Positions 8,084 through 62,411 of a stretch of 64,000 bases of DNA are shown here, in pieces. Position 1 is the stretch's first letter; each line of letters begins with the position of its first letter. Below the pieces are notes generated by a model that saw nothing but the letters and a program-made list of their open reading frames with translations, had not been told where the DNA came from and did no database searches. A program made the translations under genes and the position numbers. Source of the DNA: Patescibacteria group bacterium. Lineage in GTDB: Bacteria > Patescibacteriota > Microgenomatia > 0-14-0-10-38-17. The DNA is taken from NCBI GenBank assembly GCA_050953885.1, contig JBMNNJ010000002.1, forward strand, positions 41,586-105,585, read 5' to 3'.

Positions 8084-9295
8084 TTAGGCAATTACCTTGG
8101 TAATTACCCCGGCGCCCACGGTTTTCCCGCCTTCACGCACGGCAAAACGCAACCCTTCTTCTAAAGCCACCGGCGTGATTAATTTCACCTGACCGGCAAT
8201 ATTATCACCCGGCATCACCATCTCCACTCCCTTCGGCAAGGTTACCTCGCCGGTAACATCGGTGGTGCGAATATAAAATTGCGGCCGATAGCCGGTGAAG
8301 AAAGGCGTGTGCCGCCCTCCTTCCTCCTTAGTTAAAACATAAAGCTGGGCTTCAAATTCGGTGTGGGGAGTAACCGTTCCCGGCTTGGCAATCACCTGCC
8401 CCCGCTGGACTTCGTCTTTTTCTACTCCCCGCAAAAGCAAACCCACATTGTCGCCCGCCATTGCCTCATCCAGACTTTTTCTAAACATCTCAATGCCGGT
8501 AACCACTGTTTTCTTCGTTTTCTCGGAAAGACCAACAATTTCCACTTCTTCGTTAACTTTAAGAACCCCTCTTGCCACCTTACCGGTTACCACGGTGCCC
8601 CGCCCTTTAATGGAGAAAACATCTTCCACCGGCATTAAAAAGGGTTTTTCCACATCCCGCTTGGGCAGAGGAATATACTCGTCTACTTTTTCCATTAACG
8701 TTAAAATCGGCCCACACCACTGGCATTCTTTTTTGCCGCAACCGCATTCCAGCGCCTTAAGGGCGGAACCGCGAACAACGGGGATATTCTTCCCGTCAAA
8801 TTCATACTTGGTTAAAAGCTCTCTTATTTCTTCCTCCACCAAATCCACTAGTTCCGGATCATCAACAGCGTCAACTTTATTCAAGAAAACCACCATCGCC
8901 GGCACATTCACCTGCTTGGCCAAAAGAAGATGTTCTCGAGTCTGGGGCATCGGGCCGTCGGCGGCGGAAACCACTAAAATCGCCCCGTCCATTTGCGCCG
9001 CGCCGGTGATCATGTTTTTCACGTAATCGGCATGACCGGGACAATCAATATGGGCGTAATGACGGTTAGCAGTTTCGTATTCTAAATGGGAGATGTCAAT
9101 CGTCACCCCGCGCTGTTTTTCCTCCGGGGCCTTGTCAATTTGGTCAAATGATATCGCTTGCGTGGGATTACCTGGTTGGGCAGAAAGCACTTTGGTAATC
9201 GCCGCGGTCAGGGTGGTTTTCCCGTGATCCACGTGACCAATCGTGCCAATATTCAAATGGGGTTTGGTGCGTTCAAATTTTTTGCTTTCGGCCAT
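8084..9295 (-). CDS. tuf: elongation factor Tu (with an unusual CxCx4CxxC insertion)
   Basis: The 403 aa ORF carries [23 protein letters not shown] and NKVD G-domain motifs. Residues 184-194 read [11 protein letters not shown]. Confidence 0.97.
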
Positions 9296-9366: not shown

Positions 9367-11484
9367 TTAATTCTTTTCTTCCCCCCTTACTTTAGCCACT
9401 AATTGCTCCTGAAGATTCCTCGGCATCACCTCATAATGGGAAGGCTCCATGTAAAAAGTGGCCCGGCCGCCGGTTAAACTGCGCACTGCGGTGGCATAGC
9501 CGGAAAGCTCGGCCAAAGGTGCTAAGGCGGTAATAACCCGCACGTTCCCCCGCGAAGCCGTGCCGCTCACCTGACCCCGTCTTGAGGAAATATCACCAAT
9601 CACCTGCCCCATATATTCCTCCGGCGAGGTCACCTCCAGCTTCATAATCGGCTCCAAAATCACCGGTTCTCCTCTCTTAACCGCCTCCTGCAAGGCAATC
9701 GAGCCGGCAATTTTAAAAGCCATCTCGGAGGAATCAACCTCATGAAAAGAGCCATCATAAACGGCCACCTTTAAATCAACCAAGGGGAAACCGGCCAAAA
9801 CTCCCTTTTCTTTGGCCTCAATCACTCCTTTTTCAATCGCGGGAATAAATTCCTGCGGAATGCGGCCGCCCTTAATTTCGGAAACAAACTCAAACCCTTC
9901 TCCCCGGCCCTTAGGCTCCACCCGCAACCAACAATGGCCATACTGCCCCCGACCCCCCGACTGGCGGATATATTTCCCCTCGGCGGTGGCGGTTTTGCTC
10001 ACTGTTTCTTTATAAGCCACCTGCGGCGCCCCCACCGCCACCTGCACTCCAAATTCGCGGCGCAAACGATCCACCAAAACCTCCAAATGAAGCTCACCCA
10101 TACCGGAAATAATCGTCTGCCCTGTTTCCTGATTGGTTTTCACCTTAAAAGTGGGGTCTTCTTCCATTAAACGGCCCAAAGCCTCGGCCAACTTTTCCTG
10201 ATCCGCCCGGCTGGGGGGTTCCACCGCCAAAGAAATTACCGGCTCGGGAAAAGAAATTTTTTCCAAAAGAATGGGGGCGTTTTGCTGGCAAAGAGTGTCG
10301 CCGGTGGTGGTTTTCTCCAGGCCGATAGCGGCAACGATTTCCCCCGCATATGCCTCACGAATTTCTTCCCTTTTATCAGCATGCATTAAAAGCAGGCGGC
10401 CAATCCGTTCCGAGGAGGCGGCGGTGGCGTTATAAACAGTCGTGCCGGCGCTAATTTTCCCCGAATAAAGACGCAAATAGGTAATTTTCCCCACATGGGG
10501 ATCGGTTTGCACCTTAAAAGCCAAAGCGCAAAAGGGGGCTTCCGGGCTTGCTTCTCTTTTTTCCTCCTGCCCGGTTTTGGGATTAACCCCTTCCACCGGA
10601 GGCAAGTCCAAAGGAGAGGGAAGAAAATCAACAATGCCGTCCAAAACCGGCTGAACCCCTTTATTACGCAAAGACGAACCGCAGTAAACAGGCACCAGCT
10701 TATTGGCAATTACCGCTTTTCTTATTCCCAACTTTAACTCCTCAATACTTGGCGTTTCGTTATTAAGATACTTTTCCATCAGGGCATCGTCAAGGCCGCT
10801 CACTTTTTCAATCAATTCTTCCCGCGCCTTGCTTAATTCTTCTTTTAATTCCGCCGGCACCTCTCTTGTTTCAATTTTTACCCCCTCTTTATCCTGCCAG
10901 TAAAGGGCTTTCTCATCTAAAACCGAAACCACTCCCTGAAAGCTGTTCTCTTTGCCAATCGGCAGGGTTAAAAAAATCACCTCTGCCCCTAACCTTTCCT
11001 TAATTGTCCCCACCGCCTGATAAAAGTCCGCCCCCAACTTATCCATCTTATTAAGAAAACAAAGGCGGGGGACATGATAACGATCGGCCTGACGCCAGAC
11101 GGTTTCCGACTGCGCCTGCACGCCTTCCTCGGCATCAAAAACCATCACCGCGCCATCCAAAACCCGCAGGGCCCGCTCCACCTCGGCGGTAAAATCAACA
11201 TGGCCGGGGGTGTCAACAATATTAATCCGGTGGTCGCGCCAAAAAGTGGTCGTGGCCGCCGACTGGATGGTAATGCCCCGCTCCCGCTCCTGCACCATCC
11301 AGTCCATTTGGGTGGTCCCTTCGTCAATATCACCAATTTTATAGGTCCTACCGGTATAATAAAGAATTCGCTCTGTTGTCGTCGTTTTACCGGCATCAAT
11401 GTGGGCAATAATACCAATATTGCGAATTTTTTCCAACGAAACTACCCGGTTTTCGGTTAAGGTAATTTTTGCGCCGCTAGCCAT
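9367..11484 (-). CDS. fusA: elongation factor G
   Basis: The 705 aa ORF has AHIDAGKTTTTERIL, DTPGHVDF and NKMD motifs and the full EF-G domain set. Confidence 0.97.
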   Translation of the reverse strand: MASGAKITLTENRVVSLEKIRNIGIIAHIDAGKTTTTERILYYTGRTYKIGDIDEGTTQMDWMVQERERGITIQSAATTTFWRDHRINIVDTPGHVDFTAEVERALRVLDGAVMVFDAEEGVQAQSETVWRQADRYHVPRLCFLNKMDKLGADFYQAVGTIKERLGAEVIFLTLPIGKENSFQGVVSVLDEKALYWQDKEGVKIETREVPAELKEELSKAREELIEKVSGLDDALMEKYLNNETPSIEELKLGIRKAVIANKLVPVYCGSSLRNKGVQPVLDGIVDFLPSPLDLPPVEGVNPKTGQEEKREASPEAPFCALAFKVQTDPHVGKITYLRLYSGKISAGTTVYNATAASSERIGRLLLMHADKREEIREAYAGEIVAAIGLEKTTTGDTLCQQNAPILLEKISFPEPVISLAVEPPSRADQEKLAEALGRLMEEDPTFKVKTNQETGQTIISGMGELHLEVLVDRLRREFGVQVAVGAPQVAYKETVSKTATAEGKYIRQSGGRGQYGHCWLRVEPKGRGEGFEFVSEIKGGRIPQEFIPAIEKGVIEAKEKGVLAGFPLVDLKVAVYDGSFHEVDSSEMAFKIAGSIALQEAVKRGEPVILEPIMKLEVTSPEEYMGQVIGDISSRRGQVSGTASRGNVRVITALAPLAELSGYATAVRSLTGGRATFYMEPSHYEVMPRNLQEQLVAKVRGEEKN

Positions 11485-16000: not shown

Positions 16001-16720
16001 ACCAATTTTTTTAACCTTTAAAACTAACGAATGATAAAAACTTTTGAGCGTTTCCTCTTGTTTTTCCTTTTCCAAAATTGCCTGTTGGATTTTTCTCTTT
16101 AATTGCAACTCCCCTTCCCTTAAGGCCAAATCCCGGGCTTCTCCCGACTTAATTCTTTTCTTCACCCTTTCTTCTTCCTCCCGCGCCTCATCTTTAATTT
16201 TTTTCAAAAGCTGCTTTTTCTTCAGCTCCAGTTTTTCCCGCTCTTCTTTTTCTTCCCGGCCTAAATTAGCCAAAACTTTCCCCCTTTCTTTCTCGTCAAC
16301 GCTAATTACCAAATAATGGGTAAAGTAAATTACCCCCTGGAGATACTTATTGGAAACCCCCAAAAGAATAGAAAGAGGAGAGGCTGATCCTTTGAAATAC
16401 CAAACATGAGCGCAGGGAGCGGCTAGGTTAATATGGCCCATTCTTTCCCGCCGCACCCGGGAACGGGTAACCTCCACTCCACACTTATCACAAATTACCC
16501 CCTCGTAGCGGCGGCGCTTATACTTACCGCAGTAACATTCCCAGTCACGGGTGGGCCCAAAAATCCGCTCGCAAAAAAGACCGTCTTTCTCCGGCTTAAA
16601 AGTGCGGTAGTTAATTGTCTCCGATTTTAAAACCTCGCCACGCGACCAAGAAAGAATTTCCTCTGGCGAGGCCAGTCTTACTTGAAGAGCTTTAAAATCG
16701 TTAATTGGTTCGGAATCCAT
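13016..16720 (-). CDS. rpoC: DNA-directed RNA polymerase subunit beta-prime
   Basis: The 1234 aa ORF has the N-terminal zinc-binding CxxC motifs, NADFDGDQMAVHLP catalytic motif and trigger-loop region. It also has a lineage-specific charged coiled-coil insertion (KEEREKLELKKKQLLKKIKDEAREEEERVKKRIK). Confidence 0.97.
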   Translation of the reverse strand: MDSEPINDFKALQVRLASPEEILSWSRGEVLKSETINYRTFKPEKDGLFCERIFGPTRDWECYCGKYKRRRYEGVICDKCGVEVTRSRVRRERMGHINLAAPCAHVWYFKGSASPLSILLGVSNKYLQGVIYFTHYLVISVDEKERGKVLANLGREEKEEREKLELKKKQLLKKIKDEAREEEERVKKRIKSGEARDLALREGELQLKRKIQQAILEKEKQEETLKSFYHSLVLKVKKIGFGSFISGNEMTTFAQHGADSFFEAKMGSEAVLEAVGKIDLSKELARLRRRVGLTESEAKRKKLYQRIALLTNLLESGVDPSWMILQVLPVLPPDLRPMVQLSGGKFASSDLNDLYRRVLNRNNRLKSLMEIGAPEIILRNEKRMLQEAVDNLIDASQIKRPRASKRMQLRSLSESLRGKKGRFRQNLLGKRVDYSGRSVIVVGPKLNLNQCGLPKEMALEIFKPYLLHQMILEGVAPNIRSAKATLDRRPPEVYGILNEIIKDKVVVLNRAPTLHKLSLQAFYPVLVDGLAIQLHPCVCSGFNADFDGDQMAVHLPLSQQAQEEAKNFMLPQKNLLKPADGAPVSVPTSKEMALGIYYLTTINSDLPQREEIMSEEEVFLAYQAGKINLRQKINFFYEGKVLETTIGRIIFNQILPPEFRFVNEAIDSKVLKSLLSKILFKVEEGKMVEIIDAVKALGFWAGTLSGLSFGIADNVIHPEKEKIIKAAEQRVLEIERSFNQGLITANERRELTQNIWIETTDELADKTWELFPPDSPVRLIIDAKVGRASRDNVKQLSAMRGLSVDPLGRIVPLPTKSNFREGLAVFEYVTSARGSRKGLTDTALKTADAGYLTRRLVDAAHDMIVREEDCGTKKGIEIKREGARAEKFGERLLGRFLAADVKVGGKTLLKKGELLDDDKVDLIVKEEKITSVLVRSPLTCKTHYGVCQRCYGWNFANKKLVEIGTPVGILAAQSIGEPGTQLTLKTKHSGGVLGVDVTQGLPRVEELFEIRLPKSLAPLAEIDGQVWIKEESGGGMVVEIRGKEEKREYFVPPANQLLVHDKEKVLAGTQLAAGALDVEEVLKIRGLRAAQEYLLDSIQGVYESQNIGINDRHFEVIIRRMSDKVQIINAGDTKFIVGSFVDLLRFRKVNEKAKERKIKPARGKRLILGLTKVALYTDSWLSAASFQETVNVLTQASLEGRVDNLVGMKENVIIGRLIPVSPEQVVLEEDRLEF

Positions 16721-62336: not shown

Positions 62337-62411
62337 GGCCTGGTGCCCAAGTAGTAAGGGAACTGTCTGCAAAACAGTTATACGCGGGTGCAATTCCCGC
62401 CCAGGCCTCCC
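62337..62411 (+). tRNA. tRNA-Cys (anticodon GCA), CCA encoded; atypical D and T loops
   Basis: A 7 bp acceptor stem (GGCCTGG/CCAGGCC), discriminator U plus CCA (U73 is the tRNA-Cys identity element), a 5 bp anticodon stem (ACTGT/ACAGT) with loop cuGCAaa (U33, A37) and a 5 bp GC T-stem (GCGGG/CCCGC). The D-loop lacks the GG dinucleotide and the T-loop reads UGCAAUU. Confidence 0.6.

What the first reader, a model, noticed from the sequence alone, without database searches (positions are those of the whole stretch)
8705..8761. EF-Tu carries a CxCx4CxxC insertion replacing the usual GDAEWEAKI segment
In the G-domain segment that normally reads ...ALEGDAEWEAKILEL..., this tuf encodes [21 protein letters not shown]. 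The four Cys (residues 184, 186, 191, 194) are spaced like a zinc knuckle. I do not know of an EF-Tu with a metal-binding insertion, so this is worth checking. It could be a lineage marker, a regulatory redox or zinc site, or an assembly error.
Basis: partly seen in the sequence, partly recalled or inferred. Interest (0 to 1): 0.55.

Follow-up and report, generated by a model that had tools for sequence, protein, structure and literature searches.

The report
EF-Tu with a conserved four-cysteine loop
This bacterium's translation factor EF-Tu carries a four-cysteine loop, probably a small structural zinc site, next to its GTP-binding pocket; the loop is real and occurs in EF-Tu of many bacterial phyla, but I found no structure or paper describing it.

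Summary
The tuf gene (8084-9295, minus strand) encodes ...[26 protein letters not shown]..., with Cys184/186/191/194 at 8714-8746. It is not an assembly error: the same tuf DNA, or DNA differing at 4 bases, was recovered in 8 other assemblies.

It is not a marker of this lineage. The hits include Moorella, Sulfobacillus, Desulforudis, Dehalococcoidia, Nitrospirae, anammox Planctomycetes, Aquificota, Desulfobacterota, Actinomycetes and Saccharibacteria.

In an unselected metagenome sample, 5 of 80 full-length EF-Tu had all four Cys, 74 had none and 1 had one. The pattern is all-or-none. The Cys-containing loop has a fixed length, with near-invariant Gly185, Gly187 and an acidic residue at 190. 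Cys-free loops vary in length.

AlphaFold2 models the loop at pLDDT 95-98, between the helix after the G5 motif (SAL) and the last G-domain helix. No solved EF-Tu contains this loop, and 8 valid literature searches found no description.

My best reading is a structural Zn(Cys)4 knuckle, gained or lost repeatedly, like the zinc sites of some ribosomal proteins. This is inferred: no metal was measured and no model coordinates were available.

The parts
8084..9295 (-). tuf gene, elongation factor EF-Tu, 403 aa
   Evidence: ORF. NCBIfam TIGR00485 EF-Tu equivalog scores 707.9 bits against a cut-off of 522.4. Pfam GTP_EFTU, D2 and D3 domains match. The protein is 64-69% identical to the Thermus and E. 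coli EF-Tu structures listed by Foldseek.
8714..8746 (-). Cys4 core C184-G-C186-G-K-K-E-C191-Q-W-C194, the putative metal-binding knuckle
   Evidence: Among 68 Cys-containing sequences not selected by motif: C 68/68 at all four positions, G185 67/68, G187 63/68, D/E190 67/68. The C184..C194 segment is 11 residues in 151 of 152. AF2 pLDDT is 95-98; residues 185-193 are non-regular, between helices 178-184 and 194-207.
8759..8767 (-). G5 guanine-recognition motif S177-A178-L179, five residues upstream of the first Cys
   Evidence: Read directly from the sequence. S177, A178 and L179 are invariant in alignment A1. The assignment as G5 rests on established EF-Tu knowledge (E. coli S173-A174-L175).
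8870..8881 (-). G4 motif N139-K-V-D142
   Evidence: Sequence. N139 and D142 are invariant.
9215..9238 (-). G1 / P-loop G20-HVDHGK-T27
   Evidence: Sequence. All positions are invariant.
9367..11484 (-). fusA (EF-G), upstream neighbour in the str operon
   Evidence: ORF. Pfam families of the same gene on related contigs.
7745..8053 (-). rpsJ (ribosomal protein S10), downstream neighbour
   Evidence: Pfam Ribosomal_S10, 108.5 bits.
16481..16537 (-). Comparator, not part of the feature: the RpoC (beta-prime) N-terminal zinc motif [19 protein letters not shown]. It shares the ECxCGK...CxxCG signature with the EF-Tu loop.
   Evidence: Motif scan of all window ORFs. That this motif binds zinc in beta-prime is established knowledge, not tested here.

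Best explanation
The four cysteines form a small structural metal site, most likely Zn(II) bound by four thiolates. Cys184 caps the short helix that follows the G5 'SAL' motif. Cys186 and Cys191 sit in a 9-residue loop. Cys194 sits at the N-terminus of the last G-domain helix. The metal would staple this loop into a rigid knuckle. That would stabilise the G domain next to the guanine-binding pocket without taking part in catalysis.

This is a 'C+' form of EF-Tu. It coexists across bacteria with 'C-' forms in which ordinary polar residues or a longer helix fill the same space. Lineages have switched between the two forms repeatedly. The same pattern is known for the zinc sites of ribosomal proteins and for the adenylate kinase lid.

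Shown here: the presence of the motif, its conservation, the all-or-none pattern, the fixed loop length, its position in the fold and its broad distribution.

Inferred: that a metal is bound, that the metal is zinc, and that the role is structural.
For: 1. All-or-none pattern. In sets not selected by motif, 96 of the best homologues have 4 Cys and 22 have 0. In the metagenome sample, 74 have 0, 5 have 4 and 1 has 1.
2. Tight constraint typical of knuckle turns. The consensus is E-C-G-C-G-K-x-[DE]-C-x-[WN]-C-G, with G185 67/68, G187 63/68 and D/E190 67/68. The length is fixed in 151 of 152 Cys-containing sequences, whereas Cys-free loops span 20-32 residues over the same interval.
3. Selection acts at the amino-acid level. 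TGC and TGT are both used at every Cys position across 120 species genomes. Neighbouring residues 196 and 199 vary among variants at 93-100% identity while the Cys do not.
4. AF2 models the loop with pLDDT 95-98. Helix 178-184 ends at C184 and helix 194-207 starts at C194. In a Cys-free relative, the last helix extends about 5 residues further towards the N-terminus instead.
5. A precedent exists in the same window. RpoC carries the known Zn(Cys)4 signature ECYCGK...CDKCG.
6. The state switches often. Fitch parsimony on a loop-masked neighbour-joining tree of 282 EF-Tu gives at least about 18 changes, and Cys-free relatives at 81-83% identity are closer to this protein than many Cys-containing ones. 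That suggests the site is dispensable rather than catalytic.
7. Every other EF-Tu feature is normal.
Against: - No metal was measured.
- A C-x-C first half-site is less common than CxxC in zinc knuckles.
- Sequence cannot tell zinc from iron.
- The neighbour-joining tree is rough and the sample is biased, so the number and direction of switches are uncertain.
- The site lies 5 residues from G5, so a regulatory effect on nucleotide binding is not excluded.
Confidence: 0.6

Rival explanations
1. The site is a redox or zinc-release switch. The Cys4 site, with or without zinc, senses oxidants. Oxidation releases the metal or forms disulfides, perturbs the adjacent G5 and guanine pocket, and slows translation elongation under oxidative stress.
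For: The site is 5 residues from G5. Many carriers bear names of groups I know as anaerobes: Dehalococcoidia, Syntrophomonadaceae, Moorella, Desulforudis, anammox bacteria, Desulfobacterota. Inactivation of EF-Tu by oxidation of a specific cysteine, at a different site, is documented for cyanobacterial and chloroplast EF-Tu (abstract of PMC10212517, listed).
Against: No experimental link exists. By my own knowledge of these groups, carriers also include aerobes or acidophiles such as Sulfobacillus, Leptospirillum, Thermoleophilia and Gemmatimonadota. Frequent replacement by non-Cys loops in close relatives suggests no indispensable regulatory role. This reading partly overlaps with the structural zinc reading.
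Confidence: 0.15
2. The site binds iron. It is a rubredoxin-like Fe(Cys)4 centre or ligates an Fe-S cluster, reflecting iron-rich anoxic habitats.
For: The second half-site C-x-x-C-G is the rubredoxin knuckle consensus. The carriers lean towards anaerobes, judged from names. About 4% of Cys-containing sequences have a fifth Cys at position 196.
Against: The first half-site is CxC, not CxxC. Only 11 residues span all the ligands. There is no electron-transfer context. EF-Tu is extremely abundant, which would make an iron cofactor costly and oxygen-sensitive.
Confidence: 0.1
3. No metal is bound. The four Cys form two structural disulfides or are simply a packed hydrophobic/thiol cluster.
For: From memory, some archaeal aIF2-gamma knuckles were crystallised with disulfides and no zinc.
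Against: The bacterial cytoplasm, especially in anaerobes, is reducing. The strict all-or-none pattern of four Cys with invariant glycines fits a single shared ligand better than two independent pairs, which should leave 2-Cys intermediates. None were seen.
Confidence: 0.05
4. The loop is a sequencing or assembly artefact, or a frameshift specific to this contig.
For: None found.
Against: Seven of the 8 assemblies read have tuf DNA identical to the window, and the eighth differs at 4 bases. The motif is present in at least 120 species genomes. The reading frame is intact and EF-Tu is full length.
Confidence: 0.01

Closest known systems
Canonical bacterial EF-Tu (E. coli and Thermus; TIGR00485)
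   Same: The three-domain architecture, all G1-G5 motifs, the str-operon position between fusA and rpsJ, 64-69% identity and a GTP-form fold with TM 0.89 all match.
   Different: The loop between the G5 helix and the last G-domain helix carries C-G-C-G-K-x-[DE]-C-x-x-C. It is 5 residues longer than the E. coli-type loop. No solved EF-Tu has this.
Thermus / cyanobacterial-type insertion at the same EF-Tu site (e.g. 1EFT; Synechococcus 8YLY, 'ALEAIQGGASGQKGDNPWVDKI')
   Same: The insertion point is the same, right after ...SALxALE and before the conserved W-x-x-K-I helix start (alignments). This loop is therefore a known hot spot for length variation.
   Different: Those inserts are longer, have no cysteines and bind no metal. 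Here the loop is short, of fixed length and Cys4.
C+ / C- forms of bacterial ribosomal proteins (the Zn-ribbon 'two C or not two C' pattern) and the Zn(Cys)4 lid of Gram-positive adenylate kinase
   Same: A four-Cys site is present in some lineages and replaced by ordinary residues in close relatives, in a core housekeeping protein. The pattern is all-or-none with repeated switching.
   Different: The protein and fold context differ. No Cys-free paralogue in the same genome and no Zur regulation was tested. The comparison rests on my own knowledge of those systems, not on a test here.
N-terminal Zn-binding element of RNA polymerase beta-prime (E. coli C70/C72/C85/C88)
   Same: The local signature is the same: E-C-x-C-G-K ... 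C-x-x-C-G. The window's own RpoC reads [22 protein letters not shown]. It shows that a CxC plus CxxC pair can make a Zn(Cys)4 site.
   Different: The spacer is 12 residues in beta-prime and 4 in EF-Tu. The protein is unrelated and the resemblance is probably convergent.
Zinc knuckle of archaeal/eukaryotic initiation factor 2 gamma, an EF-Tu paralogue
   Same: It is a Cys4 element inserted in the G domain of an EF-Tu-family GTPase.
   Different: From memory, the aIF2-gamma knuckle lies between the G2 and G3 regions and uses CxxC...CxxC. Here the site follows G5 and starts with CxC, and the EF-Tu G2-G3 hairpin has no Cys. It is an independent insertion.

Membership tests
Bacterial elongation factor Tu (TIGR00485) | Whole-protein score above the curated equivalog cut-off | tested here: met
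   707.9 bits against a cut-off of 522.4.
Bacterial elongation factor Tu (TIGR00485) | G1 (GHVDHGKT), G3 (DCPGH), G4 (NKxD) and G5 (SAL) motifs, and the GTP_EFTU + D2 + D3 architecture | tested here: met
   All motif residues are invariant in alignment A1. Three Pfam domains match.
Bacterial elongation factor Tu (TIGR00485) | EF-Tu fold | tested here: met
   AF2 model with pTM 0.83. Foldseek best hits are Thermus EF-Tu in the GTP form, TM 0.89.
Bacterial elongation factor Tu (TIGR00485) | Genomic context in the str operon (rpsL-rpsG-fusA-tuf-rpsJ) | tested here: met
   S12, S7, EF-G, EF-Tu and S10 lie in order on the minus strand.
Structural Zn(Cys)4 site | Four Cys ligands close in sequence, conserved jointly (all or none) | tested here: met
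   Of 198 EF-Tu sequences not selected by motif, 197 have 0 or 4 Cys at the four columns.
Structural Zn(Cys)4 site | Tetrahedral arrangement of the four sulfurs (about 3.5-4 A apart) in a structure or model | not testable with these tools
   The model coordinates are not exposed. Only pLDDT (95-98) and secondary structure are available.
Structural Zn(Cys)4 site | Stoichiometric zinc in the purified protein | not testable with these tools
   This needs ICP-MS or a PAR assay.
Classical CCHC zinc knuckle (Cx2Cx4Hx4C) | Spacing Cx2Cx4Hx4C with a His ligand | tested here: not met
   The motif is C-x-C-x4-C-x2-C with no His.
Rubredoxin-type double knuckle | Two CxxCG knuckles | tested here: inconclusive
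   The second half-site is C-x-x-C-G (G195 in 57/68). The first is C-G-C-G, that is CxC and not CxxC. One metagenome variant, L170, has CxxCx6CxxC.
aIF2-gamma / eIF2-gamma G-domain zinc knuckle | Insertion located between the G2 and G3 regions | tested here: not met
   The Cys4 lies after G5, at residues 184-194. There is no Cys between T65 and D84. The aIF2-gamma position is from my own knowledge.
C+/C- zinc-dependent paralogue system (ribosomal-protein type) | Both Cys-containing and Cys-free forms occur among close relatives | tested here: met
   Cys-free EF-Tu are 81-83% identical to this Cys-containing protein.
C+/C- zinc-dependent paralogue system (ribosomal-protein type) | A Cys-free paralogue in the same genome, induced under zinc limitation (Zur) | not tested
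   Only one tuf lies in the window. The one two-copy case seen, on a single anammox contig (L034 and L110), has both copies Cys4.

The most novel reading that the evidence does not exclude
The Cys4 site next to the G5 guanine-recognition motif acts as a metal- or redox-responsive switch. It would couple EF-Tu nucleotide binding, and so the global translation rate, to cellular zinc or oxidant status in about one bacterial EF-Tu in twenty. By my own knowledge EF-Tu is the most abundant cytoplasmic protein, with several copies per ribosome. It would then also be the largest zinc pool of these cells, and the repeated losses would track zinc scarcity or oxygen exposure.
Probability: 0.12. Interest if true: 0.7.

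Novelty: new variant of a known kind. Interest (0 to 1): 0.45.

Why it matters
EF-Tu is one of the most studied and most abundant bacterial proteins. Even so, a conserved probable metal site, present in roughly 5% of environmental EF-Tu genes and in many phyla including cultured species, has no solved structure. I also found no description of it in the searchable literature.

If it binds zinc, EF-Tu would be a major and so far uncounted part of the zinc quota in these organisms. The Cys-containing / Cys-free pattern would extend the ribosomal-protein zinc story to a translation factor.

There are practical consequences too. The loop matters for ancestral EF-Tu reconstructions and for tuf-based phylogeny, because it is a homoplastic indel and should not be used as a lineage signature.

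Tried and rejected
- Assembly or frameshift artefact: rejected. Seven of the 8 independent assemblies read have identical tuf DNA and the eighth differs at 4 bases.
- CPR lineage marker: rejected. The motif occurs in many phyla, and both forms occur in Patescibacteria.
- Solved structure with the motif: none. I searched PDB sequences with the whole protein and with the 45-aa loop segment. Foldseek against the PDB returned only ordinary EF-Tu.
- Literature: 8 valid full-text searches and a look inside PMC7264889 found no description of a Cys4 or zinc EF-Tu. sought the adenylate kinase analogy. Searches failed on a term-length rule. Subscription-only papers are not covered.
- Measuring sulfur-sulfur distances in the AF2 model: not possible, because no coordinate file is exposed.
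- Rfam scan of the window: only tRNA-Cys, with nothing relevant near tuf.
- Classical CCHC zinc knuckle and aIF2-gamma-type knuckle: rejected as memberships, on spacing and position respectively.
- Direction of evolution (ancestral or derived): the Fitch root state came out Cys-free on a biased, midpoint-rooted neighbour-joining tree. I do not regard this as resolved.

Full report
**Observation**

The minus-strand ORF 8084..9295 encodes a 403-aa protein whose residues 176-209 read [34 protein letters not shown]. The DNA of 8705-8761 reverse-complements to residues 179-197. The cysteines are residues 184, 186, 191 and 194, at 8714-8746. The only other Cys is C85, in the DCPGH motif.

**The gene is a genuine tuf**

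- It scores 707.9 bits on the NCBIfam EF-Tu equivalog TIGR00485, against a cut-off of 522.4.
- It has the three Pfam EF-Tu domains.
- All G1-G5 motif residues are present and invariant among relatives.
- It lies between fusA and rpsJ, downstream of rpsL and rpsG.
- Its AlphaFold2 model (pTM 0.83) superposes on Thermus EF-Tu in the GTP form with TM 0.89.
- Against solved EF-Tu sequences, the Cys loop is a net 5-residue insertion relative to the E. coli-type or ancestral loop. It sits at the same point where Thermus and cyanobacterial EF-Tu carry a longer Cys-free insertion.

**The loop is not an artefact**

The exact protein is encoded on 12 contigs. I read 8 of them, from five JGI metagenomes and three SRA-run assemblies. 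Seven have tuf DNA identical to the window and one differs at 4 bases, with an identical loop. About 34 protein variants at 93-100% identity from NCBI, JGI, ENA and Logan all keep [12 protein letters not shown]. The adjacent residues 196 (P/S/A) and 199 (T/A/E) vary among them.

**The loop is not a lineage marker**

I scanned one genome per GTDB species for DNA encoding A-L-x-A-x-x-C-G-C-x3-[DE]-C-x2-C. About two matches were expected by chance. All 120 translate to the EF-Tu context ...[13 protein letters not shown].[DE]C..C...L.D..D.YIP.P.R..KPFLMP.

The record titles cover these groups:
- Bacillota: Moorella mulderi, Sulfobacillus harzensis, Caloramator, Desulforudis, Syntrophomonas, Symbiobacterium
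- Dehalococcoidia
- Deltaproteobacteria / Desulfobacterota: Desulfocarbo, Pelobacter
- Thermodesulfobacteriales: Thermosulfurimonas dismutans
- Nitrospirae, Nitrospinota and Aquificota
- Anammox Planctomycetes: Kuenenia, Scalindua
- Omnitrophota, Elusimicrobia, Gemmatimonadota and Binatus/Binataceae
- Actinomycetes / Thermoleophilia
- Leptospiraceae
- Saccharibacteria, Parcubacteria and Aminicenantes

Within Patescibacteria both forms exist. The closest Cys-free proteins are named Shapirobacteria or Microgenomates and have the loop ETEGKDEKWAKPIL. With the loop masked they are 81-83% identical to the window protein, closer than the Nitrospirae Cys-containing proteins.

**Frequency and the all-or-none pattern**

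To get a sample not selected for cysteines, I scanned metagenome contigs for DNA encoding the universal DCPGHADY motif and read the loop about 100 codons downstream. Of 80 full-length EF-Tu recovered, 74 have none of the four Cys, 5 have all four and 1 has one. Among the best homologues of the window protein, 96 have four and 22 have none. So 197 of 198 unselected sequences are all-or-none.

Single cysteines do appear in other EF-Tu loops, in the form KCIxELM. They fall in a different column, equivalent to P196. One metagenome EF-Tu (L170) has a different Cys4 loop at the same site, ECTTCDVSGACEWCDAI, which is CxxCx6CxxC.

**Constraint on the loop**

In 68 Cys-containing sequences not selected by motif, the consensus is E-C-G-C-G-K-x-[DE]-C-x-[W/N]-C-G. 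Counts are G185 67/68, G187 63/68, acidic residue 190 67/68 and G195 57/68. The C184..C194 segment is 11 residues long in 151 of 152 Cys-containing sequences. Cys-free loops span 20-32 residues over the same interval, where the Cys-containing span is 27. TGC and TGT are both used at each Cys position across the 120 species, so conservation acts at the protein level.

**Structure**

AF2 gives pLDDT 95 and 98 for residue blocks 181-190 and 191-200. Helix 178-184 ends at C184. Residues 185-193 are non-regular. Helix 194-207 starts at C194. In the Cys-free relative P0047, the loop is only 5 residues and the last helix is longer, 187-203 in its numbering.

The Cys4 form therefore replaces the first turns of that helix with a closed knuckle. 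The first Cys is five residues after the G5 motif S177-A178-L179. The role of G5 in guanine recognition is established knowledge, not tested here. I could not obtain model coordinates, so the geometry of the four sulfurs is untested.

**Evolution**

I built a neighbour-joining tree of 282 non-identical EF-Tu with the loop masked. Fitch parsimony on it needs at least about 18 changes of state. Seventeen of 97 Cys-free sequences have a Cys-containing nearest neighbour. The tree is rough and the sample is biased. It still indicates repeated gain or loss, or transfer, rather than a single event. I do not consider the direction resolved.

**Interpretation**

The best-supported reading is a structural tetrathiolate metal site, most likely zinc, that staples the loop between the G5 helix and the last G-domain helix. 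The support is the all-or-none pattern, the fixed length with invariant glycines, the Cys positions at a helix C-cap and a helix N-terminus, and the easy replacement of the site in close relatives.

There is also a precedent in the same window. RpoC carries the beta-prime zinc signature [22 protein letters not shown]. Its ECxCGK...CxxCG pattern matches the EF-Tu loop except for the spacer, which is 12 residues rather than 4. That this beta-prime element binds zinc is established knowledge.

Rival readings are a redox or zinc-release switch acting on the nearby nucleotide pocket, an iron or rubredoxin-like site, and metal-free disulfides. Sequence cannot separate them. I rank them lower for the reasons given in the rivals section.

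**Comparison with what is known**

The protein is a member of the EF-Tu family by every feature tested. The loop is not a classical CCHC knuckle, because the spacing is wrong and there is no His. It is not the aIF2-gamma-type knuckle, because the position in the G domain differs; the aIF2-gamma position is from memory.

In how it works, the closest parallels are the Cys-containing and Cys-free forms of ribosomal proteins and the Zn(Cys)4 lid of Gram-positive adenylate kinase. Both comparisons rest on my own knowledge.

No PDB chain contains the motif. Eight valid full-text searches found no paper describing it. Subscription-only literature was not searchable, so an earlier mention cannot be excluded.

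**Verdict**

The feature is real, conserved and widespread. It is a probably zinc-binding variant of a very well-known protein and appears uncharacterised. I rate it a new variant of a known kind, of moderate interest.

Noticed in passing
window 4596-7744 (minus strand): Two ORFs with no Pfam match sit between rpsJ (S10) and rplC (L3), which are normally adjacent. They are followed by about 525 nt (7220-7744) without a long ORF. The ORFs are 5936..7219 (427 aa, N-terminal hydrophobic segment, Gly/Thr/Ala-rich) and 4596..5750 (384 aa, signal-like N-terminus and a C-terminal membrane helix). The 427-aa ORF is also present downstream of rpsJ on related contigs.
   Followed up: partly
window 16481-16537 (minus strand, rpoC aa 62-80): RpoC carries [19 protein letters not shown], the beta-prime N-terminal zinc motif. 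It shares the ECxCGK...CxxCG signature with the EF-Tu loop. Apart from one motif in the ORF at about 51442, these were the only such Cys4 motifs found in window ORFs of at least 60 aa.
   Followed up: partly
L170 (metagenome contig Ga0074195_1027413): This EF-Tu has a different four-Cys loop at the same site, SALKSLECTTCDVSGACEWCDAIDKLM (CxxCx6CxxC). It suggests a second version of the same solution.
   Followed up: no
L034 and L110 (both on contig JAURAC010000004.1, Ca. Subterrananammoxibius californiae): Two tuf copies about 16 kb apart on one contig both carry an identical Cys4 loop (QCGCAGKECKKCGPIS). In this case there is no Cys-containing / Cys-free paralogue pair.
   Followed up: no
L025 and L037 (genome-contig loci): In two MAGs the tuf reading frame breaks just after the Cys4 motif (…CEWCSSILAAHQGPRR…*, …CQWCSGIWKLIGCGGQ…*). 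These look like frameshift errors in those long-read assemblies rather than biology.
   Followed up: no
window 62337-62410 (plus strand): A tRNA-Cys (GCA) is the only tRNA and the only Rfam match in the 64-kb window.
   Followed up: no
L198 (human-gut metagenome contig): This EF-Tu loop...NVDGPECKCIFELM..., keeps one Cys at the C194 column and one at the 196 column. It may be a remnant of a decayed Cys4 site.
   Followed up: no
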